Source: Nannocystis bainbridge (GTDB taxonomy: Bacteria; Myxococcota_A; Polyangia; Nannocystales; Nannocystaceae). From it: DNA of 64,000 nucleotides. Position 1 is the first letter of the stretch. Each line of letters starts with the position of its first letter. A program made the position numbers and the translations under genes. The notes under the pieces are model-generated. The model ran no database searches. It was not told the origin of the DNA and saw only the letters and a program-made list of their open reading frames with translations. Location of the stretch: positions 1-64,000 of the forward strand of contig NZ_JAQNDL010000002.1 in the NCBI RefSeq assembly GCF_028368995.1, in the 5' to 3' direction. Positions 1 through 61,510 of this stretch are shown here, one piece after another.

Positions 1-2096
1 TCGTAATGGTGGGAGGAGTCACCTTCGGGCCGCGGCGCGAGGGCCCCGTGGTAGCCGCGGAGCAGCCGCTTCTGGACCATGTCGCGGTGGACATGGATGC
101 GCTCGAGCGCGGCCCGCCGCTCGGCTTCGGTCGGCACCAGCACGAGGATGTCGGCCTCGGGCTCGGCCAGGATCAGGGCCTCGCACAGGGCGATGGTGAC
201 CGGGCGGAAGCCGCAGATCAGCACCCGCTTCAGCGGGAGGTGCGGCTCGCGGGCGAAGGGCGGGGCGTCGGTGACGGTGTGCAGGGCGGCGGCCTCCTGG
301 TCTTCGGACCAGACGGCGCCGTCGGGCTCGCGCCGCAGCGCCTCGGAGAACTCGCGCACGTGGGCGAAGCTGGGGGCGAGCGCGACGAAGCCGTTGCAAG
401 TGGGGGCGATGGCGCCGGCGGGGCGGTCGTCGCCGCCGATGGCGACGCCGAGGTCGGGCATGCCGAGCTCGTCGACCTCTTCGTAGAGGAGGCCGATCGG
501 GACCAGCCGCTGCCGCCGCGGCAACATCCGCGCCCGCCGCGTCAGTTGGTTCATCGCCGCGTGCGGCTCGGCCGCCAGCTGCGGCGGGGTCTCGCAGCTG
601 TAGCTGAGCTCCGGCTGGTCGAAGAAGCAGGTGTAGATCTCGTGGCCGGTGCAGGTCAGCAGTTCGGCGAGCAGCGGGCCGATGCCGGCGGTGCGGCCGA
701 CGCAGGCGAGGAACAGCGCGATCATGCGATCGACGACGACGATGAAGGCCCGCAGCTCGCCGCCGCCCGAGGCCAGCGCGGCCCAGGCGGCCGGGACGTT
801 GCGCTCGTCGAGGATCTCGGCGATGAGCAGCTTGCCGCGCCCGCGCTGGTGGGTGAGGTGGCCGTCGGTGACGCGGGCTGTCCTTCGGGACCTGTTCTTT
901 TGGACCTGTACGTTCGAACCGGTGACGGCGCCCTCCTCGGGGTCGGCGGGGCTCGGGTCGCGCAGGCCCTCGACGATCGCCAGCGAGGCGCGGATGGTCT
1001 CGGCGTCGGGCTCGGCGGCGGAGGTGTCGGCCAGCAGCACGACCCGCTGGGCCACGGCGATGTCGGCGCGGTGCATGAACGCCTCGTCGGTGGCGCTGCC
1101 GTGGCGGTAGACGATGCGTGCCAGCTCGCTGCGGCGCAGGAAATCGGGCCGCTCGGGGCTGGTGCCGACGACGACGTAGCGCGGGCCCATCAGCGCCCGC
1201 CGCACGTTGTCGAGCAGGAGCACGAACCACCAGCGCGACAGCGGCCGCACGTCCTGCGGCAGCAGCTTTTGGTAGTAGCGCATCAGCTCCTCGAGCAGCT
1301 GACGGGTGGCGGCGGTGATGTTGACGATCACCGTGTGCCCGTGCAGGCCGGGCGGCCGCAGCTGGCTCAGCTCCATCATCTCGCGCACGACGTCGCTGCC
1401 TAGACCGATGAGGAAGCTGACGAGGAACAGGCCGGCGACGGTGAGCCACAGGCTGATGATGACGACGCTGGCAGCGGAGGGCGCGGCCATCATGTTGCCG
1501 GGATCCTGGATCTGCCGGAACGCCCACCACAGCTTGGTGAAGAAGTCGTGGTCGTCGCGGTCGACCACGCCGTCCTCGTCGTAGTCGACGCCGCGATCGT
1601 CGACCTCGCTCTGCTGCAGGAACAGCGCGCCCGCGAACGACAGCAGGCCGACGACCATCGCCATGACGACGACCTGCCGGGCCCGCTCGCGCCGCAGCAT
1701 GACGGTGCGCAGGTCCTTCATCAGCGGGGCCCAGTAGCCGAGCAGGACCACGAATCGCAGCAGGCGGAGGCTCCGCATCCACGGCGAGGCACGCGGGTCG
1801 ATCGGCAAGAAGCTGACGAGGGCGACGAGGTCGAGGGCCAGCAGCGCGAGCGCCCCGGGCCGCGGCAACCGCCAGCCGCGCTGCCGCGGGTCGTCGGCGG
1901 TCTCGCGCCGCACGGCCAGCAGGAGTCGTAGCGAGAACTCGAGCGCGAACAGCCCCAGCAGCAGCGGCTCGTACTGCTTGACCCACGGCTCGGGGATCAG
2001 GCTGAAGATGATCGCCGCGCTGAGCAGCAGCCTCACGCCGGCGCTGCCGAGGATCCGGCCGAGGCGCGCGAGTGCGGCGGAGGACCTTTCCGGCAC
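1..2096 (-). CDS. Ion channel: voltage-sensor-like S1-S4, CASTOR/POLLUX-type pore and RCK domains (runs off the left edge)
   Basis: Not in the ORF track because it has no stop in the window. Translated by hand from GTG 2096: MPERSSAALARLGRILG...LFALEFSLR...ALDLVALVSFLP...RSLRLLRF...KLWWAFRQIQDPGNM...GHTVIVN...AEILDERN...KRVLICGFRP. Confidence 0.8.
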   Translation of the reverse strand, partial: MPERSSAALARLGRILGSAGVRLLLSAAIIFSLIPEPWVKQYEPLLLGLFALEFSLRLLLAVRRETADDPRQRGWRLPRPGALALLALDLVALVSFLPIDPRASPWMRSLRLLRFVVLLGYWAPLMKDLRTVMLRRERARQVVVMAMVVGLLSFAGALFLQQSEVDDRGVDYDEDGVVDRDDHDFFTKLWWAFRQIQDPGNMMAAPSAASVVIISLWLTVAGLFLVSFLIGLGSDVVREMMELSQLRPPGLHGHTVIVNITAATRQLLEELMRYYQKLLPQDVRPLSRWWFVLLLDNVRRALMGPRYVVVGTSPERPDFLRRSELARIVYRHGSATDEAFMHRADIAVAQRVVLLADTSAAEPDAETIRASLAIVEGLRDPSPADPEEGAVTGSNVQVQKNRSRRTARVTDGHLTHQRGRGKLLIAEILDERNVPAAWAALASGGGELRAFIVVVDRMIALFLACVGRTAGIGPLLAELLTCTGHEIYTCFFDQPELSYSCETPPQLAAEPHAAMNQLTRRARMLPRRQRLVPIGLLYEEVDELGMPDLGVAIGGDDRPAGAIAPTCNGFVALAPSFAHVREFSEALRREPDGAVWSEDQEAAALHTVTDAPPFAREPHLPLKRVLICGFRPVTIALCEALILAEPEADILVLVPTEAERRAALERIHVHRDMVQKRLLRGYHGALAPRPEGDSSHHY

Positions 2097-2154
2097 GCGG
2101 GGAAAGATAACCGAGGGACTGGCCGAAGGGGCAATCCCGCGCGACACTCAAGTC

Positions 2155-2889
2155 ATGTGCGGCCGCTACACGCTGACGACCCCCGACCTCGAAGCGCTCG
2201 CGCGCGTGGTGCAGGCGGAGATCTCGCCGGAGCTGCGCGAAGCGTACCGCCCGCGCTACAACATCGCGCCGACGCAGGCGACGACGATCGTGTACGCGGC
2301 GCCGGAAGAGGGCCGGCGGCTCGATTTGGGCCTGTGGGGCGTGCACCTCGCGGGCAACCGCCCGGGGGCACAGATCAACGTGCGCGCAGAATCGGCCGCG
2401 ACGGCGCCAGGCTCGCGCGAGCTGTTCGCGCGCGGCCGCTGCGGGGTCCTGGCCGACGGGTTCTACGAGTGGTCAGGCCCGAAGGAGCACCGCCAGCCGC
2501 ACTGGTTCCACACGCCCGGCGGCCGCCTGATCGTGTTCGCGGGCCTCTATCAGGACGTGCGCGACGAGGCGACGGGCGAGGTGACGCGGAGGTTCGCGAT
2601 CCTGACGACGGGGGCGAACCTCACGGTCGGGCGCCACCACGATCGCATGCCGGCGATCGTGCCGCGCGGGCAGCTCGGCCGCTGGCTGGCACCGCTGCCG
2701 CGCACTGCCAACATGGCCGAAAAGACAGCTCTGGCGCACCTGCTGGGCCCGGCGCCCGACGACATGCTGGTCGACTCCCCCGTGTCGACGCGGGTCAACA
2801 GCCCGCGCTTCGACGACCCGAGCTGCCTCGAGCCCGAACCGACGCTGCTCGAGGACGAGAGCGAGGCGCCGCGCGGCCGCTCGAAGTGA
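2155..2889 (+). CDS. SOS response-associated peptidase (SRAP/YedK/HMCES family, abasic-site crosslinking protein)
   Basis: N-terminal MCGRY plus RYNIAPTQ, INVRAE, DGFYEW, HHDRMP and VSTRVNS motifs. Confidence 0.95.
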   Translation: MCGRYTLTTPDLEALARVVQAEISPELREAYRPRYNIAPTQATTIVYAAPEEGRRLDLGLWGVHLAGNRPGAQINVRAESAATAPGSRELFARGRCGVLADGFYEWSGPKEHRQPHWFHTPGGRLIVFAGLYQDVRDEATGEVTRRFAILTTGANLTVGRHHDRMPAIVPRGQLGRWLAPLPRTANMAEKTALAHLLGPAPDDMLVDSPVSTRVNSPRFDDPSCLEPEPTLLEDESEAPRGRSK

Positions 2890-2976: not shown

Positions 2977-3290
2977 CCGCGAGCGGGCTCGACCGGCGCG
3001 AGAGCAACATGTCTCTTGCGACATGTGAGCACGCTCGACATTGGGGGAGAGGTGTCGGCGCTCGGTGACTCTCGCGACAAGCGCTCCCGCGAGCGAGCTC
3101 GACCGGGGTGAGGGGCACATGTCTCTTGCGACATGCGAGCGCGCGCTCGAGGGCGAACGCTCGGGGGATGCCGCGCTCGTCGGGGGTCGTCTCACTTTGG
3201 AGGCTGGGGCGCGTGGGCGAGCGCGACCGGCGATCTGCAGTTCGGGGGTGCGCGGGAATCATATGTCCTTCAGGACATGTCTCGAAGAGC
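2977..3290. repeat. Imperfect direct repeat of about 62 bp (period 110) carrying the 14-bp palindrome, plus a third palindrome at 3264
   Basis: ACATGTCTCTTGCGACATG at 3007 and 3117 with shared flanks; TGTCCTTCAGGACA at 3264. Confidence 0.85.
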
Positions 3291-8530: not shown

Positions 8531-8572
8531 GCTGTCCCCGAGGACATGTGCATAGAGACATGTCCGAATGGC
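8531..8572. repeat. Phased 14-bp palindrome array (3 centres)
   Basis: Centres at 8531, 8545, 8559: TGTCCCCGAGGACA TGTGCATAGAGACA TGTCCG. Confidence 0.8.
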
Positions 8573-8835
8573 TTAGTCGTCGGTGAGTGATTCGACGGGT
8601 CCTGGGGCAGGTCGTGATCGACGTGACCTCGAGGACAGATGACGGTCGCCTCGCGGTCGAGGGCGTGAATCGACCTGACCGCGAGGACATGTTGTCGGGC
8701 GGGGTCGCACCGGGCCGCGCGAGACTCGCTGTGCAGGGTCTTCCAGGACGTGCCGGGCGCTGCTCGCTGCGTGCGGGTTCGCGCGCGGGCCGCTCATGAC
8801 AAGGGACGGCGGAGCCGCTATCGTGGCGGGACCTC

Positions 8836-16038: not shown

Positions 16039-16058
16039 CGCCCGGCGGTCGCCGGGCG
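16039..16058 (+). terminator. Short GC hairpin after the stop codon
   Basis: CGCCCGGC-GGTC-GCCGGGCG; no U-tract. Confidence 0.4.
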
Positions 16059-16060
16059 CG

Positions 16061-16492
16061 CATGACTGTTCGGGTATGTCCGATAGGGCATGCCCGAATG
16101 GGCATGTTCTTCCGGACATGTTCTAAAAAGCATGTCCGGGCGGGCATATGCCCAAATCGTGTCTGTGCGGGCGTGCAGGGCATGTGTGCGTAGGCCTGTC
16201 CGAACGGGCAGGTCCGGACGGACCCGCGTACGAACTGCCCGCGAGTGCTGCGAGCGGGTATGTTCGAAGGGACATGTCCGTGAGTGGCGCGAGAGAACGG
16301 CCATGTTCGAAGGGACATGTACAGACGTGGCCCGTACGCTGACGATGGGCCGCATCCGAAGGGGCAAGCCCGAGTAGGCCTATCGGCGAGCCTCCCGGAG
16401 GGCATGCACGGGAATGATTCGGGCATGACTCGCGCATGCCTGTGCATGACTCGCGCATGCCCGAGCGGGCATGCCCGAAGGGACATGCCCGG
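16061..16492. repeat. Largest 14-bp palindrome array, between convergent genes
   Basis: CATG/TATG-like centres at 16061, 16075, 16089, 16103, 16117, 16131, 16145; further phased runs at 16181-16209, 16259/16273, 16302/16316 and 16456-16484. Confidence 0.9.
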
Positions 16493-17578: not shown

Positions 17579-17583
17579 CGCGC

Positions 17584-25954: not shown

Positions 25955-26262
25955 TATGGCTCTCGGGACAGGTTCTAAAATAGCAGCGATGGAGATGTCC
26001 CTGGGGACAGGCTATGCGAGGATGGTTCTCACGGTGGCGAGAACGCGGCGGCCGGCAGCGACATGTCCTGCGGGACAGGTGATGTGAAGATGACTCTCAC
26101 GGTGGCGAGATCGCAGCGGCCGGCAGCGACATGTCCTGCGAGACAGGCGATGTGAGGATGGCTTTTACGGGCGCGAGCTCGCGGTTACATGTCCATTGGG
26201 ACAGGCGGTGCGAGGATGGAGCGGTCGCTAGAACGGCAACGACATGGCCTCGTGGACAGGCG
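25955..26262. repeat. Higher-order tandem repeat (units about 55-68 bp), each with one 14-bp palindrome
   Basis: ATGTCC-N4-RGACAGG-like units centred at 25994, 26062, 26130, 26188, 26243 (also 25955); the first four are followed by GARGATG. Confidence 0.85.
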
Positions 26263-29663: not shown

Positions 29664-29675
29664 GGGCGGGTCTTC

Positions 29676-29755
29676 GGGGCATGTCCGCATGGACATGCTC
29701 TCGAGGACATGCTCTCCGGGGCATGGCCTCGGGGACATGCCCGGAAGGACAGGCG
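29676..29755. repeat. Phased 14-bp palindrome array filling a convergent intergenic gap
   Basis: Centres at 29680, 29694, 29708, 29722, 29736, 29750. Confidence 0.9.
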
Positions 29756-29757
29756 GG

Positions 29758-36424: not shown

Positions 36425-38359
36425 ATGCGCGCGATCAGCAGGCTCTCTCTCGTCACTCTATGGGCCGGATCGATGGGGGCCTGTGCCGGGGGAGAGGGCT
36501 CGGAGAGCCGCGGAGGGACTGCCACCGAGACGACCGTCGGCGCGATGACGGCCACCGAGGCGACCGCCGGCACGGCCACCGACGCCCCGACCGGCACCGA
36601 CTCTGCCAGCGGCGCCAGCGAGGGCAGCGGGACCGACTCGGCGACGGTGGGCACGACCGCGACGCCGCCGACGACCACCGATCCGACCACCACCGATGGC
36701 GTCACGACCGACGCGGTCACCTCCACCGACACCGCCTCGACCACCGGTGAGCCGTGCGAACCGGTGCAGTGCTCGCCCGACCTCAAGGGGCTCGAGTGCG
36801 ACGGGCAGATCGTGTCGACCTGCGAGGACGACTCGTACTGCGTCGACGGCGTGTGCACGCCGCTGGCGCCGTGCGAGGCGGCCGCGCTGCTGCAGGGCAG
36901 CGAGGGCTGCGAGTTCTGGGCCGTGAAGACGCAGACCACCAAATCCGGCGGGTGCTTCGCGGCGTTCGTCGCCAACACCTGGGACGAGCCGGTCCACATC
37001 GAGGTCGAGTACGACGGCCAGAGCCTCGACGTCGCCGGCTTCACGCGGATCCCCCAGGGCCAGGGCGAGGGCATCAGCTATGCCCCGTACGATCCGGGGG
37101 CCGGGCTGCCGGTCGGGCAGGTCGCGCTGGTGTTCCTGTCCCGAGGGACAGGTGACAACCCCGACTGCCCGGCCCCCGCGGGCGTGGCGGCCGAGACCGA
37201 GGTGGTCGGGACCGGGCGCGGCAAGGGGTTCCGCATCACCACCGATCGGCCGGTCGCCGCCTATCAGATGCTGCCGTACGGCGGCGGCTCGGTGGCGATC
37301 ACCTCGGCGACGTTGATGCTGCCGACCAGCGTGTGGGACACCAACTACGTGGTCGTCAACGCCTACGCGCAGAGCGTCGCGGTGCCCGCGGCGCGGCCGC
37401 TGTGGGCCATCGTCGCTGGCGAGGACGGCACCGAGGTGACGCTCGATCCGAAGGTCGCCGTCGTCGGCGGCCCCGACGTGGCCGCCGGCGCGGCCGGGGT
37501 GCCGATTCAGTACACCCTCGATCGCGGCGAGACGATCCAGTTCGCGCAGTCGGCCGAGCTGACCGGCTCGCCGCTGGTCGCCAACAAGCCGGTCGGCGTG
37601 TTCGGCGGGGCCAGCTGCTTCAACGTGCCGGTGGGGGCCTCGTACTGCGACGGCGCGCACCAGCAGATCCCGCCGATCAAGGCGCTGGGCAGCGCCTACG
37701 TGGCGGTGCGTTACAAGAACCGGCTGGCGATGGGCGTCGAGGAGACGCCGCCGTGGCGGCTGGTCGGCACGGTCGACGGGACCATGTTGACGTGGGAGCC
37801 GGGCAAGCCGGCCGGCGCGCCCGACACCTTGTCTTTGGGACAGGTCGCCGAATTCGCCGCGGCGGGGCCGTTCACGGTCCGCAGCCAGGACAGCGAGCAC
37901 CCGTTCTATTTCGCCGGCTACATGACCGGCGGGCAGCTCCACGACAACCGCGGCGACCCCGAATGGGTCAACGTGATCCCGTCGGAGCAGTACCTCGATC
38001 GCTACGTGTTCTTCACCGACCCGACCTACTCCGAGACCAGCCTGGTGGTCGTGCGGCGCAAGCAGGACGGCGCCTACGCCGACGTCACGCTCGGCTGCGC
38101 CGGCGTGCTGGACGGCTGGGCGGCGGTCGACGACGAGCACGAGTACACCCGCGTCGACCTGGTGACCGGCAACTTCGAGGACGTCGGCGGGTGCTCGAAC
38201 GGCCGCCACGAGATCTCGAGCGCCAACCCGATCGGCGTGACGGTGTGGGGCTGGGGCTCGCCGGAGTCGGTCGATTTCTACACGCTGAACGTGTCGTACG
38301 CGTACCCGGCAGGGGCGGCGATCCGGCCGATCAACGACGTGACGATCATGCCGCAGTGA
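36425..38359 (+). CDS. IgGFc-binding-protein-N-domain lipoprotein
   Basis: Thr-rich linker; GCEFWAV, ITTDRPVAAYQ, ATLMLPTSVWDTNY, ELTGS..ANKPVGVFGG, GDP....IPSEQYL, SYAYPAG. Confidence 0.85.
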   Translation: MRAISRLSLVTLWAGSMGACAGGEGSESRGGTATETTVGAMTATEATAGTATDAPTGTDSASGASEGSGTDSATVGTTATPPTTTDPTTTDGVTTDAVTSTDTASTTGEPCEPVQCSPDLKGLECDGQIVSTCEDDSYCVDGVCTPLAPCEAAALLQGSEGCEFWAVKTQTTKSGGCFAAFVANTWDEPVHIEVEYDGQSLDVAGFTRIPQGQGEGISYAPYDPGAGLPVGQVALVFLSRGTGDNPDCPAPAGVAAETEVVGTGRGKGFRITTDRPVAAYQMLPYGGGSVAITSATLMLPTSVWDTNYVVVNAYAQSVAVPAARPLWAIVAGEDGTEVTLDPKVAVVGGPDVAAGAAGVPIQYTLDRGETIQFAQSAELTGSPLVANKPVGVFGGASCFNVPVGASYCDGAHQQIPPIKALGSAYVAVRYKNRLAMGVEETPPWRLVGTVDGTMLTWEPGKPAGAPDTLSLGQVAEFAAAGPFTVRSQDSEHPFYFAGYMTGGQLHDNRGDPEWVNVIPSEQYLDRYVFFTDPTYSETSLVVVRRKQDGAYADVTLGCAGVLDGWAAVDDEHEYTRVDLVTGNFEDVGGCSNGRHEISSANPIGVTVWGWGSPESVDFYTLNVSYAYPAGAAIRPINDVTIMPQ

Positions 38360-42363: not shown

Positions 42364-42515
42364 GGCGTGCTCGATCGGGCATGTGCTCGAGAGCATGTCC
42401 GATCGGGCATGTTCCATGGAGCATGCCTCGAGGAACATGATCGAAGAGACAGATGATGTCGCGGGTTGATGGGCGCCACGTCGCCATGGCGCGCGGGACA
42501 TGTCCCATGGGCCTG
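42364..42515. repeat. Phased 14-bp palindrome array (7+3 centres)
   Basis: Centres at 42366, 42380, 42394, 42408, 42422, 42436, 42450; then 42485, 42499, 42513. Confidence 0.9.
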
Positions 42516-45688: not shown

Positions 45689-46060
45689 GAGATGTCCTTG
45701 CGGACATGTCATGTCGCGGGCGAGGGCGCGGCGTGGCGGCGGAGCGGAGATGTCCTTGCGGACATGTCATGTCACGGGTGATCGCGGGGCCGTGAGCGCT
45801 CGCGGAGGGAGCCGGGGATGGATGTCCGGAAACGGAGGGGATGTCCCTTGGGACATGCTGGGTCGAAGCGACTCCAGCGCCGGCGCCGGGGCACGCGGCG
45901 AGGGCTCCGCGGGCATGCCATGGCGGTCGCGGCGCTGGCGTGGTGCCAGCGACAGGCAAGCCGGCGGTATATGTCCTTGCGGACACGTCATCGCGCGGGC
46001 GATCGTCGTCGGCCATGGGCAACCGCGTGGACGAGCCGGGATGTCCTTGCGGACATGTCA
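45689..46060. repeat. Dispersed conserved 20-27-bp repeat (palindrome core) with unique spacers
   Basis: ATGTCCTTGCGGACAYGTCA at 45692, 45750, 45971, 46041; variant at 45841. Confidence 0.85.
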
Positions 46061-46324
46061 CGTCCCGGGCCGCAGATGTTGCGGTCGGAGAGCGTCGAGG
46101 CGGCGCGACGGCGGGCCCGACGAGCGCAGAAATGTCCTGGCGGTTCCGCCGAGTCGGGGGGGCGCCCACGCTGTCGTCGGGCGCGCGCGGGCGGCCTTTT
46201 GTCGAGCGCTCGCGGGATCGGCGGGGATCGGCCGGGTCGCGTGGGCGCGGGCGGTGGGCGCGATGGAAGACAGGGCGAGCTCGGCTCCCGGTGCGGCTGG
46301 GCGGCGAGCGGCGATCGCATCGCT

Positions 46325-46405
46325 CCAGGACATGCTCGAATGGTCATGTCCTTGGAGACATGTAGTAGAGGACATGACGATATCGGCATGTCCTTCGGGA
46401 CATTC
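46325..46405. repeat. Phased 14-bp palindrome array (6 centres)
   Basis: Centres at 46331, 46345, 46359, 46373, 46387, 46401. Confidence 0.9.
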
Positions 46406-46421
46406 TGCCCGAGGCCGAGGC

Positions 46422-47942
46422 TCAGGGCGCTTCTTCGCCCTCGAGGCCGTGCGCCAGCGGCAGGGTGAACGTGAACACCGTGCCGGTGTGGTCGCTGGCG
46501 ACCTGCATGCGGCCGTCGTGGGCGTCGACGATGCTGCGGGCGATCGACAGGCCGAGGCCGAGGCCCTTCTTGCCGCCGCGGACCGTCGACCAGAACGGCT
46601 CGAAGATGTGGGGCAGGTCGGCCTCGTCGATGCCGGGCCCGTGGTCGCCGACGGCGAAGCGGACCTGGCCGCCCTCGATCTCGCCGTCGACGGTGACCTC
46701 CTGGCCGGACGCGCTGAACTTGATCGCGTTGTCGAGCAGGTTGCCGAACACCTGGGCGATCCGGGTGCGGTCGCAGAACAGCGGGGCCTGGGCCATGCGC
46801 AGGCGAGCGACCAGGCGCACTCTCTTTTTGTCCGCGAGCGGCTTCTGCAGCGCGAGCGCCTCCTCGACGATCTCGCGGGCGTCGGCGACCTCGCGCTCGA
46901 GCACGGTGGCGCGGCCGGCCTGGGCGCCGGCGAGGTCGAGCAGGTTCTCGGTGAGGCGCTCGATGCGGGCGGCGCTGCGCTGGATGACGGCGACGTTCTC
47001 CTCGGCGTCGCGGAGCTTCTTGACCAGCACGGTGGTGCCGAGGGTGATGGCGCTGAGCGGGTTGCGCAGGTCGTGCGAGACGACGGTGAGCACGTCCTCG
47101 CGGGCCTGGCTGGCGCGCAGGGCCTCGGCGTGTTGGCAGGCGTTGTCGAGGGCGAGGGCGAGCCGGTCGGCGAGGCGGCGCACCAGATCGAGGTCCTCGG
47201 CGTCGAGGCGGCGCGCGGCCAGCAAGCGGACGACACCGAGCGCGCGATCGCGGGCGATCAGCGGCGCGACCAGGCCGGTGCGCAAACCGAGCTCGTGCAG
47301 CGGCGCATCGAGGCGGCCGAGGTCGTCGAAGCCGCGGGCGCGGCTGTCCCGAAGGACATCCAGGGCGTGGTCGTGCAGCGGGAACAGGTCGTGCAGCGGC
47401 CGCTCGTGCAACAGGGCGGCGTCGGCGTGGGCGAGGCCGATCAGGCGCAGCTCGTCCTCGGCCTCGAGCAGCGAGACGAGGGCGACGTCGCCGAGGCGCG
47501 GGGCCAGCAGCTCGGCGCCGAGCTGACCGACGCGGGCGACTTCGAGGGACTCGAGCAGCAGGCGACCGGCGTCGTCGAGCAGCCCGGCGGCGGTTTGGCG
47601 GCGCCGCTCGGCGCCGACGTCGGTGAGCACGGCGACGGCCGCGACCACGGCCCCGGCGCTGTCACGCACCGGCACGGCGCGCACGTGGACGTGGACGACC
47701 TCGCCGCCGGCGGTGACGCGGCGGACATCCTCGTCGATGACGGCGCCGGCGAGGCAGCGCGCGAGCGGGTGATGGCGAGGGTCGTCGGGGAAGTAGGCCA
47801 GGAGGGCCGCCGCGGCGCCGCTGGCGGCCACGGGGGTGCCGTGCGGCGCGGCGGCGACGACGGCGTCGAGGGAGCCGAGGCGGGCGAGGGCGTCGACGAT
47901 CCGGCGCGCGGGATCGGGGAGGACAGCAACGGGCTCGCGCAT
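46422..47942 (-). CDS. Sensor histidine kinase (PAS-like, GAF, HisKA, HATPase)
   Basis: VSHDLRNPL, NLLDNAIKF, DHGPGI, IFEPF, GLGLGL. Confidence 0.95.
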   Translation of the reverse strand: MREPVAVLPDPARRIVDALARLGSLDAVVAAAPHGTPVAASGAAAALLAYFPDDPRHHPLARCLAGAVIDEDVRRVTAGGEVVHVHVRAVPVRDSAGAVVAAVAVLTDVGAERRRQTAAGLLDDAGRLLLESLEVARVGQLGAELLAPRLGDVALVSLLEAEDELRLIGLAHADAALLHERPLHDLFPLHDHALDVLRDSRARGFDDLGRLDAPLHELGLRTGLVAPLIARDRALGVVRLLAARRLDAEDLDLVRRLADRLALALDNACQHAEALRASQAREDVLTVVSHDLRNPLSAITLGTTVLVKKLRDAEENVAVIQRSAARIERLTENLLDLAGAQAGRATVLEREVADAREIVEEALALQKPLADKKRVRLVARLRMAQAPLFCDRTRIAQVFGNLLDNAIKFSASGQEVTVDGEIEGGQVRFAVGDHGPGIDEADLPHIFEPFWSTVRGGKKGLGLGLSIARSIVDAHDGRMQVASDHTGTVFTFTLPLAHGLEGEEAP

Positions 47943-49922: not shown

Positions 49923-50858
49923 TCACGGGCCGGTCCACACGTAGCCGGCGACGGCCTCGTACTGGTAGCCGAACATCGCCACCGCGCTGTCGCGCTCGCC
50001 CTCGCTGGTCGTGTAGAAGTGGTCGCCCTTGCCGTAGAGGCGGAACAGCGGGACCGCGCCGCACTGCGGGTCGGTGGCGATGTGGCCGAGCGGGCCCTCG
50101 GGCGTGGCCGCGTTCTCGCAGGTCGCGCTGGTGGTGTAGAAGCGGCGGCCGTCGCCCTTGAGGCAGCGGTAGAACGGGACCAGGCCGGTGCCGGGGGCCG
50201 CGTAGAGGAAGAAGAAGTTGAGCGACTCGGGGCTGAAGTCGCCGGACATCGCCTCGGCGGCGTCGACCGTATAGAAGTGGCCGAGCGTCGGGCTCGAGCT
50301 GCGGTGGACGCCGACGCGGCAGCCGGGCAGGGCGCCCTCGTCGCACACGCCGTCGCAGTTGTCGTCGAACACGTTGCACGCCTCGGCCTTGTCGGGCTTG
50401 CAGACCAGGCCGCACATCTGCCCGGGCGCGAGCTGCTGCTCGCAGCCGTTGTTCGGATCGGCGTCGCAGTCGAACCAGCCGTCGTCGCACTCGCCGAGGG
50501 CGCACTGGCCCGCGCTGCAGGCCGACGTGGCCCGCGGGATCACGCAGCTGATGCCGCACTTGCCGCAATTGGCGGGGTCGGTCATGAGGTCGACGCACTG
50601 CACGCCGCAGGTGATCAGTGGGTCGCACACGAGCGGCGGGTCGTCGACGCCACTGCCGCTCGTGGAGCTGCTGGTGTCGCCCGTGGAGGTCGGCGGGGCG
50701 TCGGTGGTGCCGGTGGTGCCGGGCTCGCCGGTGCTCGTCTCGGTGCCGGTCGCGTCGGGCCCGGTCGGGGTCGAGGCGGTCGAGCTGTCGGCCCGGCCGT
50801 CGTCGCCGCAGGCGGGCAGGAGCGTCAGCGCGACGAAGAGACATGTCCCGGAGGACAT
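49923..50858 (-). CDS. Cys-rich lipoprotein with putative metal-binding repeat and C-terminal DUF5648-like repeats
   Basis: Lipobox LLPAC; DPANCGKCG, EACNVFDDNCDGVCDEG, HFYT repeats, GYQYEAVAGYVW. Confidence 0.8.
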   Translation of the reverse strand: MSSGTCLFVALTLLPACGDDGRADSSTASTPTGPDATGTETSTGEPGTTGTTDAPPTSTGDTSSSTSGSGVDDPPLVCDPLITCGVQCVDLMTDPANCGKCGISCVIPRATSACSAGQCALGECDDGWFDCDADPNNGCEQQLAPGQMCGLVCKPDKAEACNVFDDNCDGVCDEGALPGCRVGVHRSSSPTLGHFYTVDAAEAMSGDFSPESLNFFFLYAAPGTGLVPFYRCLKGDGRRFYTTSATCENAATPEGPLGHIATDPQCGAVPLFRLYGKGDHFYTTSEGERDSAVAMFGYQYEAVAGYVWTGP

Positions 50859-50910
50859 GGCGCGAGCACCATGGCGTGATGGCCATGTCCCGGAGGACAT
50901 GGCACATGCG
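50840..50910. repeat. Phased 14-bp array overlapping a translation start
   Basis: CATG at 50842, 50856, 50870, 50884, 50898; CATGTCCCGGAGGACATGG occurs twice. Confidence 0.9.
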
Positions 50911-50947
50911 CCAGGTCGAAGCAGCGGGGTCCCGCGGGGCATGGCGC

Positions 50948-52330
50948 TCAGGCCAGGATCCCGGTGAGGTGCTCGGTGGTCTCGCCGCCGTTGAAGCCGT
51001 AGCTGGGGGTGTCGATGCCGAGCGCGCGCAGGATGGTGACGTGGACCTTGCAGAGGTTGCCGCCCTGCTCGCGGTAGTGGTAGCCGCGGACCAGCTTGCC
51101 GCCGGCGCCGCCGGCCAGGACCACCGGCATCTCGGCGGTGCTGTGCTTGTAGCCCTCGCCGTACTCGGACGCCCCGTAGACGCAGGCGCGGTCGAGCACG
51201 CTGACGCCCATCGGGTCGACGGCGGCGGCGAGGTGGTCGAGCAGGCGGGCGAACGCCAGCATCTGGTACTCGGTGATGCTGCGGACGTGCTCCCACTGAC
51301 CGTCGTGGCAGACCTGGTGCATCCCGTTGGGCACGCCGAGGTTGTTGAACACGTGGGTGGTGGCCGGCGAGCTCAGCATGAACGAGAACACGCGGGTGAG
51401 GCCGCAGTTGAGCGCGGCGGCCAGCAGCCCGGCCATGATGTCGGTGCGGGCGACGACGTCGGCCGAGTCGCCGGGGGCGGCGGGGATGATGTCACATGTC
51501 CCGGAGGACAGATCGAGGCGGCGCTGGACCTCGCGCAGGTGGTCGAGGTGGGCCTCGAGCCGCTGCTTGTCGGTGCCGCCGAGGCGGCCGCGCAGGCCCT
51601 CGGCGTCGGCCATGACGGCGTCGATGAGGGTGACGCGGCGGGTCAGCGCCATCAGGTCGGCCGGCACGTCGAACAGCATCGAGTAGAGCTGCGCGGGGCT
51701 GTGGATCGCCCCGACCGGCGAGTCGGGGCCGGTGAACGAGATGGCGTTCCAGTGGCCGTAGTCGTGGAAGCGGGCCTCGCTGACGCCGAGGCACAGCGAA
51801 CGGAACCGCGAAGGCGTGTTGCCGTAGAACTGCTCGTGACCGGCGATGTACTGGTCGAGGGTCGGCCGCAGGCAGGTCAGGGTGTGCGACGGGTGATCGA
51901 AGCCCTCGGGGCGGATGCGGTCGCCGGTCATCGCCACCATGAAGCCGCGCATGTGGCCGTCGCTCTGGCCGTTGTCGGGCTGCGGGACCTCGGTCTTGGG
52001 CTCGAGGCCGGTGGCGACGCTGACCTTGTGGGCGGCGAGCGGCGTGAGCAGCGGCGAGGGCGTGAAGTCGGCGCCGAGCGTGGGCGGGGTCCAGACGTCG
52101 CCGCCGGGGCTGTTGGCGCCCTGATCGGCGCCGTGCCCGGCGTGCCACGGGACGCCGTTGGCCCAGTAGAACAGGCCGAAGATCGGGTCGCTGCTCGGGT
52201 CGGCGGCGCGGGCCTCCTCGGCGAACATCGCCTCGAGCGGCGGCAGGGCGAGGGCCACGGCGGCGCCGCCGACGGCCCCGCGCAGGACGGTGCGGCGGGA
52301 GATGGGCGGTTTGCGGATCAGGAAGGTCAT
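50948..52330 (-). CDS. DUF1552 family protein (Tat signal)
   Basis: ISRRTVLRG..ALALPPLEAM, FYWANG, TLDQ, RLEAHLDHLREV, ALNCGLTRV, VVLAGGAGG. ATGA overlap with the upstream gene. Confidence 0.9.
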   Translation of the reverse strand: MTFLIRKPPISRRTVLRGAVGGAAVALALPPLEAMFAEEARAADPSSDPIFGLFYWANGVPWHAGHGADQGANSPGGDVWTPPTLGADFTPSPLLTPLAAHKVSVATGLEPKTEVPQPDNGQSDGHMRGFMVAMTGDRIRPEGFDHPSHTLTCLRPTLDQYIAGHEQFYGNTPSRFRSLCLGVSEARFHDYGHWNAISFTGPDSPVGAIHSPAQLYSMLFDVPADLMALTRRVTLIDAVMADAEGLRGRLGGTDKQRLEAHLDHLREVQRRLDLSSGTCDIIPAAPGDSADVVARTDIMAGLLAAALNCGLTRVFSFMLSSPATTHVFNNLGVPNGMHQVCHDGQWEHVRSITEYQMLAFARLLDHLAAAVDPMGVSVLDRACVYGASEYGEGYKHSTAEMPVVLAGGAGGKLVRGYHYREQGGNLCKVHVTILRALGIDTPSYGFNGGETTEHLTGILA

Positions 52331-54111: not shown

Positions 54112-54130
54112 CTGTCCCTTGGGACAGGTC
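54112..54130. repeat. 14-bp palindrome copy upstream of the DUF1592 gene
   Basis: TGTCCCTTGGGACA at 54114. Confidence 0.7.
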
Positions 54131-58632: not shown

Positions 58633-58708
58633 GCTGGCCGAAAGGGCATGTCCTTTCGGACATGGCCATTCGGGCATGCGCGTTTGGGCATGTCTGAACG
58701 GGCAGGTT
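58633..58708. repeat. Phased 14-bp array filling a convergent intergenic gap
   Basis: Centres at 58633, 58647, 58661, 58675, 58689, 58703. Confidence 0.9.
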
Positions 58709-58712
58709 CAGA

Positions 58713-59417: not shown

Positions 59418-59536
59418 GGTGTGCGTGAGGAGATGTCTCGAAGGAGATGTCTCTCGAGACATTTGATTGTCAGGGCCGGTCGGCGAGGCGCTCGCAGTCG
59501 CGATCGGCGGACTCGCGGCATGTCTCGAAGGACAGG
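59418..59536. repeat. 14-bp palindrome array and copy
   Basis: Centres at 59418, 59432, 59446, 59460; then 59519/59533. Confidence 0.8.
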
Positions 59537-59790
59537 TCATCGGGCTCGTCCGCGTGTAGCGGATCGGTCGCGTCACCCGTGGTCGGGTCGGCGGTGGTGC
59601 CGGTGGTCGAGGTGGTGGTCTCGTCGTCGGTGGTCGTGGCCGATTCGACGGTGATGGTGGTATCGAAGGTGGTCGACCAGGTGTGCTCGTCGAGGTGCTG
59701 GTGCTGGTGCTGGTGCTGGTATCGAAGGTGGTCTCGAGGGGCGCTGACAGAGGTGCGCAGGCGCGAGGTGGCGCTCGGGCGGCGGCGTAG
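59470..59790 (-). pseudogene. Frameshifted Ser/Thr-rich linker relic
   Basis: LETTFDTSTSTSTSTSTST in one frame, then STTFDTTITVESATTTDDETTT...DPTTG in another; TGGTGC hexamer run near 59695-59720. Confidence 0.4.
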
Positions 59791-59795
59791 GGCGA

Positions 59796-61334
59796 TCACT
59801 CGCCGTCGAGCAGGGCGCGGAGCTCGGGGTCGTCGCGGGCGACCGGGCGGATCAATTGGTCGAGACGCTCGCGTTGCCACCAGTCGGCGCTGCCGCGCGG
59901 GGCGAACCAGTAGCGGTAGACCTCGACGCGGACGAACCGCGGGGAACCGCCGGCGAACTGCGGGGGATCGGCGAACAGGCTCAGGACGGTCGGCTCGCCG
60001 GCGAGCAGGCGATCGAGGAGGTTGAACAGCCAGGTCTCGCGCGCGAGGGTGCCGTTGCCGGCGACGTCGAGCGCGGCGAACCACATGAGCCAGTCGAGGC
60101 GGCGATGGTACGGGGAGATCCAGCACGGCCGCCGATCGACGGGGCCGGGCTTGCACGGGAGTTGATAGGGGCGCCAGGTGGCGGTGTCGTCGGGGACGGC
60201 GGCGTCGGTGCCTTCGATCTGCAGCTCGTGGCGGACGGTGCTGATGCTGCCGAAGGCGCCGTAGGTGTTGACGAGATGCAGGCGATCGAAGGATGCGTTC
60301 ATCTGCTGGCGCCGGCCGGCGAGGTTGGCGACGACGTCGAGGCTGAGCCAGGCGACGACGAGGGCGTAACTGGCGGCGGTGACGACGGCGGCGCGGGTGG
60401 GGCGAGCTTCGAGATCGCCGAGGCGCGCGCGCAGGCGGGCGGGGACGAGGCGGCGCAGGGTGGCGTCGTCGAGGCAAGCGAGCAGCGGGACGAGGGTGAG
60501 CCAGTTGAGGAAGGAGAGGTTGCCGCTGACGATGAGGGTCAGCTGAAAGGCGATCATGCCGAGCGCGGCGAGCAGCCGCAGGCGTCGCGGGCCGAACACG
60601 AACCACGGCAGCACGAGCTCGGCGAGGTGGTTGAAGACGACGCCGGCGCGCAGGACCACGGGCGGCAGGTGGTGGAGGTAGAAGCTGAGAGGGTTCGGGA
60701 TCGGCTGGGTCTCGAAGTGGCTCTCGAGACAGGTGAGCTCGGCCCAGCACGGGTCGCCGCGCAGCTTGATGAGGCCGGAGCCGAGCATGATGCGGAAGGC
60801 GAGCCAGCGCAGCAGGACGATGGCGAGGTAAGCAGGCGGGCGATCGCCGGCGAGCGGCCGCACGCGCCAGAGCGGGCCCAGGAGGGCGCACAGCAGCGTC
60901 GTCTCGAGCAGCTGGATCTCCCAGCCGAAGGCGTACCAGCGGCCGCCGACGTGGACGATCGAGAGGTACAGGGCCCACAGGACGAGCAGGAGGATCGCGC
61001 TCTCGCAGCCGAGCAGCAGGAGGATCGAGAGCACGAGGCCGACGACGCTGACGGCCTGCAGGGCGGCGTCGGAGATGTCGAAGTAGAACAGGGTCGGGCG
61101 GGCGAAGAAGTCGTCGACGGGGCCCGCCGGGGTGATGCCGGCGGCGCCGACGAGCGGGACGAGCTGGGTGACGGCGGTGGCGAACGCGGCGACGAACACG
61201 AGGCCGAGCAGGCGCAGGACGACGAAGCGGGTCAGGACGTAGTTGCCCTCGCTACGCGGGCCGGAGACGAGCCGGCGAAGCCGCGAGACGAGGCGCTGCC
61301 CCGGTGTCTCGAGCTCACGCGGATCGGGCTCCAT
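59796..61334 (-). CDS. Lipase maturation factor (LMF) family membrane protein
   Basis: LRLLGLVF, WYAFGWEIQLLE, RWLAFRIMLGSGLIKLRGD, HFETQPIPNP, SGNLSFLN, NTYGAF, CKPG, SPYHRRLDWLMWFAA. Confidence 0.95.
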   Translation of the reverse strand: MEPDPRELETPGQRLVSRLRRLVSGPRSEGNYVLTRFVVLRLLGLVFVAAFATAVTQLVPLVGAAGITPAGPVDDFFARPTLFYFDISDAALQAVSVVGLVLSILLLLGCESAILLLVLWALYLSIVHVGGRWYAFGWEIQLLETTLLCALLGPLWRVRPLAGDRPPAYLAIVLLRWLAFRIMLGSGLIKLRGDPCWAELTCLESHFETQPIPNPLSFYLHHLPPVVLRAGVVFNHLAELVLPWFVFGPRRLRLLAALGMIAFQLTLIVSGNLSFLNWLTLVPLLACLDDATLRRLVPARLRARLGDLEARPTRAAVVTAASYALVVAWLSLDVVANLAGRRQQMNASFDRLHLVNTYGAFGSISTVRHELQIEGTDAAVPDDTATWRPYQLPCKPGPVDRRPCWISPYHRRLDWLMWFAALDVAGNGTLARETWLFNLLDRLLAGEPTVLSLFADPPQFAGGSPRFVRVEVYRYWFAPRGSADWWQRERLDQLIRPVARDDPELRALLDGE

Positions 61335-61489
61335 CGCTCGCGCAGGCTAGCGCAGTTGCTTCGACGCGCGTGGACGGGGCGGTCGCGCGGGGCGAGGGTC
61401 GGCCGCGCGTGGGCCGGGGCGCTCGCTCGCTGACGACGAGGCGCAGGGACCGCGAGGCGGGTCGACGAGCGTGCGGGCGCCGGGGAATG

Positions 61490-61510
61490 ATATGTCCGAA
61501 GAGACAGGTA
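61490..61510. repeat. 14-bp palindrome copy between divergent genes
   Basis: TGTCCGAAGAGACA at 61494. Confidence 0.7.

What the first reader, a model, noticed from the sequence alone, without database searches (positions are those of the whole stretch)
879..61510. Highly iterated 14-bp palindrome (TGTCY-N4-RGACA) in phased tandem arrays: candidate undescribed chromosome-wide element
Seen: about 31 exact TGTC-N6-GACA copies by hand count (e.g. 3010, 3120, 3264, 5876, 8533, 21304, 25996, 26064, 27621, 29682, 45693, 46389, 50844, 54114, 58649, 59521, 61494) plus many Y/R variants. A rough base-composition estimate at about 72% GC gives about 0.4 per 64 kb. Units abut head-to-tail, so CATG recurs every 14 bp in runs of 5-7. 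The central 4 nt vary freely, so length and phase are conserved rather than sequence, unlike a slippage minisatellite. Arrays occur every few kb in convergent, tandem and divergent gaps, regardless of gene function. Inference: a site for an abundant cooperative or polymerising DNA-binding protein (nucleoid organisation or segregation, by analogy to matS, Noc/SlmA sites or cyanobacterial HIP1), or a REP-like stem-tetraloop element. I recognise no described element with this geometry.
Basis: partly seen in the sequence, partly recalled or inferred. Interest (0 to 1): 0.92.

Follow-up and report, generated by a model that had tools for sequence, protein, structure and literature searches.

The report
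Phased 14-bp palindrome arrays at gene ends
Nannocystis myxobacteria carry thousands of copies of one short DNA palindrome, mostly as strictly 14-base-phased arrays that begin right at stop codons and fill most gaps between converging genes, and this looks like an undescribed, selectively maintained gene-end signal whose reader is still unknown.

Summary
TGTC-N6-GACA occurs 33 times in the window against 0.74 expected. It occurs 3,663 times in the 11.05-Mb genome, against 29-175 for every other spacing from 0 to 19.

The unit is 14 bp: a core GGRCATGYCC plus 4 free bases. It forms 1,835 phased arrays of 3-12 units, most often 5-6. A further 1,051 perfect isolated sites occur, many of them inside genes.

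Arrays are not placed "regardless of gap type". 54-56% of convergent gaps of 50-400 bp hold one, against 0% of divergent gaps of 50-150 bp. They start at or within a few bases of stop codons.

Arrays sit at the same positions in five Nannocystis species. Their cores are conserved and their spacers scrambled. Almost no two arrays share sequence. Base-pair covariation is absent. No RAYT transposase gene and no downstream U-tract were found.

My best reading, at 0.42, is a two-fold-symmetric site read as double-stranded DNA by a dimeric protein that binds cooperatively on arrays and marks transcription-unit ends. An RNA 3'-end hairpin element (0.30) and a molecular-drive or REP-like element (0.18) remain open. 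I found no description of it in the searched literature.

The parts
16049..16146 (.). 7-unit phased array in the convergent gap between the SUKH-domain gene (14333-16033, +) and gene 16493-17587 (-). Further short phased runs lie at 16400-16491.
   Evidence: The orthologous gap holds 7, 6 and 7 units in G007, G005 and G001.
29668..29751 (.). 6-unit phased array that fills the 94-bp convergent gap between 27876-29663 (+) and 29758-30249 (-).
   Evidence: There are 5-6 units at the same place in G007, G005, G010 and G001, and only about 1.5 units in G003. Cores are kept and spacers differ.
42368..42451 (.). 6-unit array starting 29 bp after the stop of 41848-42339 (+), in a tandem gap.
   Evidence: There are 7, 5, 5 and 5 units in the four relatives.
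46319..46402 (.). 6-unit array ending 19 bp before the stop (46422) of the histidine-kinase gene 46422-47942 (-).
   Evidence: The relatives have only 2-3 units here, next to a small converging gene that G000 lacks. So unit number does change between species.
58635..58704 (.). 5-unit array beginning 5 bp after the TAA stop of the TrkH gene (56648-58630, +), in a convergent gap.
   Evidence: In G005 and G010 the first unit overlaps the last codons and the stop codon of the orthologous gene.
8533..8574 (.). 3-unit array downstream of 7489-8463 (+).
   Evidence: There are 4 units in all four relatives, where the TGA stop forms the first three bases of unit 1.
50844..50913 (.). Five units in phase (two perfect, three degenerate) between the stop of 50948-52330 (-) and the start of 49923-50858 (-).
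59420..59461 (.). 3-unit array between 58713-59360 (-) and 59470-59799 (-).
3264..3277 (.). Isolated perfect site upstream of gene 3349-4344. It is conserved in four relatives, with a different spacer in each.
54113..54126 (.). Isolated 18-bp palindrome (CTGTCC-N4-GGACAG) between 52327-54051 (-) and 54315-56456 (-). It is conserved in four relatives and the spacer varies.
51497..51510 (.). Perfect site inside the DUF1552 gene 50948-52330 (-), conserved in four relatives.
47345..47358 (.). Perfect site inside the histidine-kinase gene, conserved in four relatives.
37137..37150 (.). Perfect 18-bp site inside gene 36545-38359 (+). It is conserved, with one core change in three relatives.
80..93 (.). 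Imperfect site inside gene 1-2096 (-). It is a perfect TGTCC-N4-GGACA in all four relatives.
25996..26203 (.). Four sites (25996, 26064, 26132, 26190) carried by a 68-bp tandem repeat in a divergent gap.
45693..46055 (.). Four copies of a longer local repeat, each with the same unit TGTCCTTGCGGACA. This is a recent local duplication, unlike the arrays.

Best explanation
The 14-bp unit is a two-fold-symmetric recognition site. In full it is AC[C/A]TGTCC-N4-GGACA[G/T]GT. In arrays, neighbouring sites overlap through ACATGT, which gives a GGRCATGYCC core every 14 bp. The site is read on double-stranded DNA by a dimeric sequence-specific protein.

Isolated perfect sites, in genes and in gaps, would be strong single sites. 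At gene ends, 3-12 weaker units in exact phase (mean 7.8 of 10 core matches) would be occupied cooperatively. Each dimer is rotated about 120 degrees from the last, and 3 units equal 42 bp, or about 4 helical turns. The resulting nucleoprotein block would mark the end of a transcription unit and act in both directions, as a roadblock terminator, an insulator or a supercoil barrier between converging genes.

Shown: the anatomy, the placement, the conservation pattern, and the absence of pairing selection and of copy-paste spread.
For: 1. No pairing selection. Across 5,363 array units, Watson-Crick frequency at every mirrored position equals the product of the marginals. This holds across the spacer and across CATG (mutual information 0.001-0.023). 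It also holds at 3,663 anchored sites (for example T/A at positions 4/9, 127 observed against 101 expected).

2. Symmetry with respect to transcription. Units in tandem gaps, oriented by gene direction, are mirror-symmetric at 5 of 7 position pairs and differ by at most 5.5 points at the others. Asymmetric-flank sites inside genes show 235 against 229 for the two orientations.

3. Selection on half-sites only. At orthologous arrays in five species, core identity is 0.91 (3,340 positions) and spacer identity 0.71 (1,336 positions), while third codon positions are 0.86-0.93 identical. Isolated sites keep both half-sites and change the spacer.

4. Not copied around. Of 6,000 two-unit 28-mers, 5,947 are distinct. 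Most of the 21 long-range duplicates lie in repeated regions at contig ends.

5. Sites inside genes. 772 perfect units lie in called genes and 617 lie deep in confident ones, spread evenly along genes. Their codon phases (440/267/65) follow GC3 constraints, so they arose by point mutation. Rearranged controls give 2-16 genome-wide.

6. Placement at unit ends. 54-56% of convergent gaps of 50-400 bp hold an array, against 0-3% of divergent gaps under 400 bp. The median distance from stop to array is 19 bp, against 174 bp from array to the next start.

7. The 5-4-5 geometry is that of known dimeric operators. The array unit fits ATGT-N8-ACAT, the PadR consensus (PMC4517056, passages).

8. The exact palindrome is also enriched, mostly as single sites, in two sister genera: 67-696 per genome in 12 of 12 genomes, against controls of 0-10. 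Two-unit phased runs are rare there: 5 in G071 and 0 in four other genomes, against 114 in G000. This fits an older protein-site pair whose sites multiplied into arrays in Nannocystis.
Against: - No binding protein was found. The one family tested by name, PadR (PF03551), has no match in this genome.
- Arrays begin at the stop codon. In 93 of 819 cases TGA is the first three bases of unit 1. That is awkward for a roadblock, which would stall polymerase before the stop.
- The RNA of every array tested folds far better than shuffles (z -4.1 to -8.4, 8 of 8).
- The sense strand shows a small excess of G.U over C.A (1,050 against 897) and of T at position 2 (p about 1e-6). This could reflect weak RNA-level selection.
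- REP elements have the same gap-type bias and are widely thought to act as RNA (PMC3733652, passages).
- The core-versus-spacer contrast uses only units that BLAST aligned. It could be inflated by register slips. I checked only the 29668 array by eye against anchors on both sides.
Confidence: 0.42

Rival explanations
1. RNA-level element. The arrays are transcribed as 3' UTRs and fold into runs of short hairpins (CAUGUCC-N4-GGACAUG, or longer foldbacks). These terminate transcription without a U-tract and/or protect the mRNA 3' end. They work in both orientations in convergent gaps. The conserved core would be read by a sequence-specific RNA-binding protein or RNase.
For: - Arrays lie directly downstream of stop codons and are rare in divergent gaps.
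- All 8 array RNAs tested fold with z from -4.1 to -8.4.
- G.U slightly exceeds C.A on the sense strand (1,050 against 897).
- A minority of arrays have complementary spacers two units apart, giving long stems (6 of 6 complementary in 1.8% of pairs against 0.5% at random).
- REPs with the same distribution are interpreted this way (PMC3733652, passages).
Against: - No compensatory covariation appears at any mirrored position.
- Using the per-position pairing frequencies, I estimate that only about 18% of units could pair at all five core positions.
- C.A mismatches on the sense strand are nearly as common as G.U.
- There is no U-tract: TTTT occurs within 15 nt downstream in 1.5% of 331 arrays.
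- In this 72% GC genome the best 80-nt window of any gap folds to about -40 kcal/mol with or without an array, so arrays add no measurable stability.
- 617 conserved perfect sites deep inside genes, with no orientation bias, are not explained.
- Hairpins would not need a conserved sequence.
Confidence: 0.3
2. A product of molecular drive rather than host function. One version is an uptake-signal-like sequence (as DUS/USS in Neisseria and Haemophilus). A second is a site favoured by biased repair, as proposed for the cyanobacterial HIP1 palindrome. A third is an old REP-like mobile family that has lost its transposase. Under any of these it accumulates wherever it is tolerated, mainly 3' gaps, and drive keeps the core constant.
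For: - It is lineage-restricted: 333-2,090 exact sites in 8 of 8 Nannocystis genomes, 67-696 in two sister genera, and background levels in 12 other genera of the family.
- There are thousands of copies, both in genes and in gaps.
- Enrichment at gene ends as inverted half-sites resembles DUS/USS pairs (recalled, not tested).
- REPs inside genes are known (PMC3733652, abstract).
- Unit number changes between species at some loci.
Against: - No Y1/RAYT transposase was found (0 matches to PF01797; genome 90% complete).
- There is no GTAG or CGTC tag in the consensus.
- Arrays are all different in sequence, so there is no recent copy-paste.
- The TGTCC half-site alone is not over-represented among 5-mers of the same composition (rank 13 of 30), unlike uptake words.
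- Drive does not explain exact 14-bp phasing, the preferred size of 5-6 units, or why 0% of short divergent gaps carry arrays.
- None were found in 2.9 million viral contigs.
Confidence: 0.18
3. An ordinary slippage minisatellite or a chance compositional pattern.
For: Simple 14-bp tandem repeats with identical spacers and a similar core do exist elsewhere. Examples are an alphaproteobacterial MAG and a Nocardiopsis contig.
Against: - The excess over every control is 50-fold to several-hundred-fold.
- Spacers of adjacent units are unrelated.
- Arrays are conserved at orthologous sites across species whose third codon positions are only 86-93% identical.
Confidence: 0.01

Closest known systems
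REP / BIME elements (repetitive extragenic palindromes; GTAG- and CGTC-tagged superfamilies, PMC3733652)
   Same: Both are high-copy short palindromic units, often clustered. Both are concentrated between convergent and same-direction genes, downstream of coding regions, with some copies inside genes, and both are lineage-specific (PMC3733652 passages).
   Different: - The unit is 14 bp (18-20 bp when isolated), not 20-40 bp.
- Units abut in one exact phase instead of alternating orientation with variable linkers.
- There is no GTAG/CGTC tag and no RAYT gene.
- There is no pairing covariation and little G.U bias.
- Only a 10-bp core is shared, and each array is otherwise unique.
Tandem operator arrays bound cooperatively by dimers (MetJ met-boxes, Fur-box hexamer arrays, omega-repressor heptads); recalled, not tested here
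   Same: These also have short symmetric boxes abutting head to tail in a fixed register, with weak individual boxes compensated by number. This is the 'works like' model for the arrays.
   Different: Those arrays sit in promoters of a regulon, tens of sites per genome. Here there are about 1,800 arrays at gene 3' ends, almost none in short divergent (promoter) gaps, and the period is 14 bp.
CRP/FNR-type and PadR-type 5-4-5 / ATGT-N8-ACAT operators
   Same: The geometry matches: two 4-5-bp half-sites with a free centre, 14 bp overall. The array unit ATGTCC-N4-GGACAT fits ATGT-N8-ACAT (PMC4517056, passages).
   Different: No PadR-family protein is detectable in this genome. Isolated sites prefer C/G rather than A/T next to TGTCC. 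The copy number is thousands. The MrpC site of Myxococcus (recalled as GTGTC-N8-GACAC) has a different spacing, and k=8 is not enriched here (29 against about 74).
Hyper-abundant genomic words: cyanobacterial HIP1 palindrome and DUS/USS uptake sequences (recalled)
   Same: These are also lineage-specific, present in thousands of copies, found inside genes as well as between them, and conserved among related species.
   Different: HIP1 and DUS/USS do not form phased tandem arrays. DUS/USS are asymmetric words enriched on their own, whereas here only the paired, correctly spaced palindrome is enriched.

Membership tests
REP / BIME (REP-RAYT systems) | High-copy extragenic units lying mostly between convergent and same-direction genes | tested here: met
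   There are 1,835 arrays of 3 or more units. Of the 1,011 arrays with 4 or more units, 481 are in convergent gaps, 331 tandem, 33 divergent and 166 genic.
REP / BIME (REP-RAYT systems) | Imperfect palindrome whose stem pairing is maintained (compensatory or G.U changes) | tested here: not met
   Watson-Crick frequency equals the marginal expectation at all mirrored positions. G.U against C.A on the sense strand is 1,050 against 897.
REP / BIME (REP-RAYT systems) | GTAG or CGTC tetranucleotide tag at one end (PMC3733652) | tested here: not met
   The position tables of the unit and 30-bp flanks show no such tag.
REP / BIME (REP-RAYT systems) | Associated Y1 (IS200/IS605-type) RAYT transposase gene | tested here: not met
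   PF01797 gives 0 matches in the window's own genome (90.5% complete). The control search hits 6 of 14 reference genomes.
MITE / REPIN-type mobile repeats | Copies share sequence along their whole length | tested here: not met
   5,947 of 6,000 two-unit 28-mers are distinct. Most long-range duplicates lie at contig-end repeats.
Slippage minisatellite / VNTR | Adjacent units are near-identical, including the variable part | tested here: not met
   Identity between adjacent spacers is 0.30-0.33, against 0.26-0.29 expected.
Intrinsic (Rho-independent) terminator | Stable hairpin followed by a U-tract | tested here: not met
   Hairpin potential is present. TTTT within 15 nt downstream occurs in only 1.5% of 331 arrays.
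PadR-family operator | ATGT-N8-ACAT site together with a PadR-family regulator in the genome | tested here: not met
   The site geometry fits, but PF03551 has 0 matches in this genome while hitting 14 of 14 control genomes.
DNA uptake sequences (DUS/USS) | Biased uptake of motif-bearing DNA by a competence receptor | not testable with these tools
   Only the genomic signature could be compared. The half-site alone is not enriched, while the paired palindrome is.
Known RNA families (Rfam 15) | Match to a curated covariance model | tested here: not met
   There are 0 matches at gathering score in the 64-kb window on either strand.

The most novel reading that the evidence does not exclude
Nannocystis uses a protein-based punctuation system. 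A dimeric DNA-binding protein polymerises on phased 14-bp arrays placed at stop codons and so defines the ends of most transcription units, in both directions. This would replace or supplement RNA-hairpin terminators in a 72% GC genome. The same protein would use about a thousand isolated high-affinity sites, many inside genes, for chromosome-wide organisation.
Probability: 0.3. Interest if true: 0.88.

Novelty: new variant of a known kind. Interest (0 to 1): 0.72.

Why it matters
About 1% of an 11-Mb genome (7,835 units of 14 bp) is devoted to one phased motif. More than half of the convergent gaps of 50-400 bp carry it.

How transcription units end in very GC-rich bacteria that lack U-tract terminators is an open question. 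This lineage offers a sharply defined, sequence-specific candidate signal. It can be tested directly with 3'-end mapping, reporter constructs and a pull-down.

The evolutionary pattern is also unusual for bacterial repeats. Arrays stay at orthologous loci with selected 10-bp cores and free 4-bp spacers. Each array is otherwise unique, and there are conserved copies inside genes. This pattern separates sequence recognition from hairpin formation more cleanly than REP elements do.

In practice the arrays mark gene ends for annotation, and they give a lineage marker for Nannocystis and two sister genera in metagenomes.

Tried and rejected
- RAYT/Y1 transposase: none in the window's own genome.
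- PadR-family regulator, suggested by the ATGT-N8-ACAT geometry: none.
- Rfam families in the window: none.
- RNA-seq evidence: no RNA holder was listed for window 27600-31600, so transcript ends could not be examined and read laying was not used.
- Fold stability of gaps with and without arrays: no difference. The median best 80-nt window is about -41 in convergent gaps either way, and -37 for random genomic sequence. MFE is uninformative at this GC content.
- Whole-array foldback, or spacer complementarity between neighbouring units: only a small tail at offset 2 and none at offset 1 or across CATG.
- Nucleation site plus weak flanks: unit quality is uniform along arrays, and the number of strong units per array is close to the permutation null.
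- Regional (ori/ter) bias: arrays are present at 9-70 per full 250-kb bin on all contigs.
- An analogous element with a different motif in another genus of the family: in 200 kb of G024 the strongest gapped palindrome reaches z=5, against z=67 in 200 kb of G000. The 41 kb of G022 is too little to judge.
- Phage origin: 0 matches in viral contigs.
- Hits outside the family: an alphaproteobacterial MAG and a Nocardiopsis contig are plain minisatellites with identical spacers, so they are not the same thing.
- Autoregulated small regulator next to a perfect site: 126 perfect 18-bp sites lie within 200 bp upstream of a called start, 38 of them before genes of 260 aa or fewer. I did not annotate these.
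- Literature: searches found no description of such arrays in Nannocystis or other myxobacteria. One search failed on a term and was not repeated.
- Earlier findings of this scan: nothing for this genome or sequence. A word search returned other phased gene-end repeats in unrelated genomes.
- Gene calls are my own crude GC3-based caller (7,888 genes). Starts are imprecise, so distances to starts and the 'genic' class are approximate. Stop positions are exact.


Full report
**Observation**

The pattern TGTC-N6-GACA has 33 exact matches in the window. Dinucleotide shuffles give a mean of 0.74 and a maximum of 3. The window is contig C3:1-64000 of an 11.05-Mb, 71.5% GC assembly in 5 contigs.

- Genome-wide, TGTC-Nk-GACA is found 3,663 times at k=6 and 984 times at k=20 (one unit further). 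Every other k from 0 to 24 gives 29-175.
- The sharper form TGTCC-N4-GGACA occurs 1,987 times. Seven controls with the same half-sites rearranged or respaced give 2-16.
- CATG-to-CATG distances peak at 14, 28, 42 and 56 bp (3,736, 2,073, 1,586 and 751), over a background of roughly 60-480. Five other tetramers show only codon periodicity.
- I chained units in exact phase, requiring each unit to match at least 6 of 10 core positions and one unit at least 8. This gives 1,835 arrays of 3 or more units at period 14, against 2-17 at periods 12, 13, 15 and 16.
- The length distribution has a shoulder at 5-6 units (285, 346 and 242 arrays with 4, 5 and 6 units).

**Anatomy**

In 5,363 units from arrays of 4 or more units, the consensus is T.88 G.95 [T.55/C.29] C.77 C.77 - N4 - G.74 G.73 [A.58/G.25] C.96 A.87.

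- The four central positions carry 0.04-0.13 bits each.
- Because units abut, the conserved block is GGRCATGYCC every 14 bp.
- Units in arrays are degenerate. They average 7.8 of 10 matches, only 4-8% are perfect, and quality is uniform along the array.

A second class is the isolated site. There are 1,051 perfect units outside any chain. Their flanks extend the palindrome to AC[C]TGTCC-N4-GGACA[G]GT, with C/G rather than A/T preferred at the junction. In an array, A/T at the junction is forced by the overlap of neighbouring 20-bp sites through ACATGT.

**No sign of selected base pairing or of slippage**

- At every mirrored pair of positions, the observed Watson-Crick frequency equals the product of the marginals. 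This holds both across the spacer and across CATG, with mutual information 0.001-0.023.
- At 3,663 sites anchored on TGTC/GACA, the free mirrored positions show no compensation. T/A at positions 4/9 is 127 observed against 101 expected.
- Adjacent units are barely more alike in the spacer than chance.
- Spacers two units apart are fully complementary in 1.8% of pairs, against 0.5% at random. This is a small subclass of longer foldbacks.
- The central dinucleotide has strong neighbour preferences: CG, TC/GA and AA/TT are favoured and TA, AC/GT and AG/CT disfavoured. I did not separate this from genomic dinucleotide bias.

**Placement**

I used a crude GC3-based gene caller of my own: 7,888 genes, 82% coding, exact stops and approximate starts.

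- Arrays of 4 or more units fall in convergent gaps (481), tandem gaps (331), divergent gaps (33) and called genes (166). 34% of all convergent gaps carry one, against 7.8% of tandem and 2.2% of divergent gaps.
- Binned by gap length, 54-56% of convergent gaps of 50-400 bp hold an array of 3 or more units. The figure is 0% for divergent gaps of 50-150 bp and 3% for those of 150-400 bp.
- In tandem gaps the array lies a median 19 bp after the upstream stop (first quartile 2 bp) and 174 bp before the next start. In convergent gaps both sides are close, at 14 and 22 bp.
- Among 819 array ends within reach of a stop codon, the commonest arrangement (93 cases) has the stop codon as the first three bases of unit 1. 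This is usually TGA taking the place of TGY. The next commonest are 2-7 bases after the stop.
- There is no downstream T-run. TTTT occurs within 15 nt in 1.5% of 331 arrays. Arrays are 59% GC in a 71.5% GC genome.
- Arrays occur on all contigs and on both signs of GC skew, at 9-70 per full 250-kb bin.
- The window's genes are unrelated housekeeping and envelope genes, including RelA/SpoT, a P-type ATPase, TrkH, Na/H exchangers, peptidases and a histidine kinase.

The statement that they occur regardless of gap type does not.

**Sites inside genes**

- 772 perfect units lie in called genes, and 617 lie at least 90 bp from either end of confident genes. They are spread evenly along gene length.
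- Their codon phases are 440, 267 and 65. That is the order expected if A/T of the motif avoids third positions.
- These sites therefore arose by point substitution within coding constraints, at about 60 times the frequency of control arrangements.
- Sites with asymmetric flanks show no orientation preference relative to the gene (235 against 229). In tandem gaps the figures are 213 against 161.

**Taxonomic range**

- A three-CATG phased pattern is present in 8 of 10 other genomes of the same genus and in 0 of 30 genomes of 30 other genera.
- I read three of the four loci from records not labelled Nannocystis. Two are plain minisatellites with identical spacers, in an alphaproteobacterial MAG and a Nocardiopsis contig. 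One myxobacterial MAG has the true pattern after a stop codon. I did not inspect the fourth, L053, labelled as an uncultured Polyangiaceae MAG.
- Across 60 other genomes of the family, the exact single palindrome gives 333-2,090 per genome in the 7 other Nannocystis genomes sampled (G000 itself has 1,987), 87-169 in 5 of 5 genomes of genus g2, 67-696 in 7 of 7 genomes of g4, and 5-20 in g32. The remaining 12 genera give 0-11, with reversed-pattern controls of 0-10.
- Two-unit phased runs number 114 in G000, 5 in one g4 genome (G071) and 0 in four other g2/g4 genomes. The G071 cases are 3-4-unit arrays directly after stop codons.
- In 200 kb of another genus (G024), no gapped palindrome stands out (best z=5, against 67 for the same test on 200 kb of G000).
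- None were found in viral contigs.

**Evolution at orthologous loci**

The window is syntenic with four other Nannocystis genomes, at 74-94% identity over the aligned blocks.

| Gap | Units in G000 / G007 / G005 / G010 / G001 |
|---|---|
| After 8463 | 3 / 4 / 4 / 4 / 4 |
| After 16033 | 7 / 7 / 6 / not mapped / 7 |
| 29663-29757 | 6 / 5 / 5 / 6 / 5 |
| After 42339 | 6 / 7 / 5 / 5 / 5 |
| After 58630 | 5 / not mapped / 4 / not mapped / not mapped |

- In the alignment of the 29668 array, which is anchored by the two converging stop codons, the GACATG cores line up and the spacers differ between species. A sixth genome, G003, has only about 1.5 units.
- Over all ten genome pairs, core positions of aligned array units are 0.91 identical (3,340 positions) and spacers 0.71 (1,336 positions). 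Third codon positions are 0.86-0.93 identical. The caveat is that only BLAST-aligned units were counted, so register slips could exaggerate the contrast.
- Isolated sites behave the same way. The sites at 3264, 54113, 51497, 47345, 37137, 50886 and 80 keep both half-sites in the relatives that align there, while the four central bases change.
- Some loci gain or lose units. 46319 has 6 units in G000 and 2-3 in relatives. G007 and G010 have 6 and 4 units in a gap where G000 has none.
- Arrays are not copies of one another. 5,947 of 6,000 two-unit 28-mers are unique, and most of the 21 long-range duplicates lie in large repeats at contig ends.

**What this implies**

The cores are kept by selection, or by some continuing directional process. 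The spacers drift, and the arrays did not spread by recent copy-paste.

The constraint acts on each half-site independently and almost equally on both strands. That is the signature of recognition of duplex DNA by a two-fold-symmetric reader, not of a stem that must pair. The geometry (two 5-8-bp half-sites, 4 free bases) is that of dimeric helix-turn-helix operators. The array unit fits the PadR consensus ATGT-N8-ACAT (PMC4517056, passages), but no PadR-family protein is found here.

Arrays of overlapping weak sites in one register resemble cooperative operator arrays such as MetJ, Fur and omega (recalled). A 14-bp period places successive dimers about 120 degrees apart, with 3 units per 4 helical turns (my inference).

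Placement says the job concerns the ends of transcription units and must work in both directions. I therefore rank a protein-bound gene-end boundary first (0.42).

**What speaks for the RNA rival (0.30)**

- The placement is exactly that of REPs, which are read as RNA elements (PMC3733652, passages).
- All 8 array RNAs I folded are far more stable than shuffles (z -4.1 to -8.4).
- The sense strand has slightly more G.U than C.A (1,050 against 897) and more T at position 2. Transcription-associated C-to-T bias could also cause this.
- An array that starts at the stop codon is more natural for an RNA element than for a roadblock.

Against it:
- There is no covariation.
- By my estimate, about 18% of units could pair fully.
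- There is no U-tract.
- There is no gain in fold stability over other gaps in this GC-rich genome.
- The conserved, orientation-free sites inside genes are not explained.

**The drive / selfish rival (0.18)**

This would explain the lineage restriction and the sites inside genes. It does not explain the exact phase, the preferred array size, the uniqueness of arrays or the near-absence from divergent gaps. No RAYT gene is present.

**Comparison with known systems**

The closest known kind is REP/BIME. It shares copy number, clustering, 3'-end placement and lineage specificity. Three defining features fail when tested: maintained pairing, the GTAG/CGTC tag and RAYT association. So I do not file the element as a REP.

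It is not a MITE/REPIN, a minisatellite, a canonical intrinsic terminator or a known Rfam family.

My searches were: Nannocystis with repeat and intergenic; myxobacteria with 'repetitive extragenic palindromic'; Nannocystis with palindrom; and REP/RAYT terms. They returned no description of it. In PMC3733652, a term search of the text found no mention of myxobacteria. Subscription literature and supplements were not searched.

**Verdict**

The element is real, abundant, selectively maintained and apparently undescribed. I class it as a new variant of the extragenic-palindrome kind. The evidence favours a DNA-level reader but does not prove one.

Noticed in passing
window 26006-26182 (sites at 25996, 26064, 26132, 26190): A 68-bp tandem repeat (2.6 copies, 84% matches) in a divergent gap. 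Each copy carries one ACATGTCC-N4-GGACAGG site plus a second palindrome (TCTCACGGTGGCGAGA). This is the only place in the window where sites are spaced by 68 bp rather than 14 bp.
   Followed up: partly
window 45693-46055: Four copies of a longer local repeat (GATGTCCTTGCGGACATGTCATGTCNCGGG...), all with the identical spacer TTGC, in a 1-kb gap. This is a recent local duplication, which contrasts with the unique spacers of the arrays.
   Followed up: partly
window 879-920 and 11493-11534: Two 3-unit phased runs inside confident genes (gene 1-2096 on the minus strand, and the rhomboid gene). Both are conserved in relatives. I did not resolve whether they are functional sites or coding coincidences.
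   Followed up: partly
window 40679-41044: A 93-96-bp tandem repeat (2.6-3.8 copies) inside gene 39556-41619. It corresponds to repeated DUF4215 cysteine-rich domains.
   Followed up: no
G000 contig ends (C1 about 4.516-4.534 Mb, C2 about 0-2 kb and 3.02-3.03 Mb, C5 about 711-717 kb): Large repeated regions shared between contig ends carry identical arrays. They probably explain why the assembly breaks there.
   Followed up: no
window 46180-46420 against G007, G005, G010 and G001: The relatives encode a small converging membrane-protein-like gene ending just before the array. G000 lacks it and has a longer array (6 units against 2-3).
   Followed up: partly
L042 (alphaproteobacterial MAG) and L064 (Nocardiopsis): Simple 14-bp minisatellites, (GGCATGTCCCGCGG)n and (GGGCATGTCCGGGC)n, with identical spacers. 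One follows a stop codon. They resemble the Nannocystis unit superficially but are ordinary slippage repeats.
   Followed up: yes
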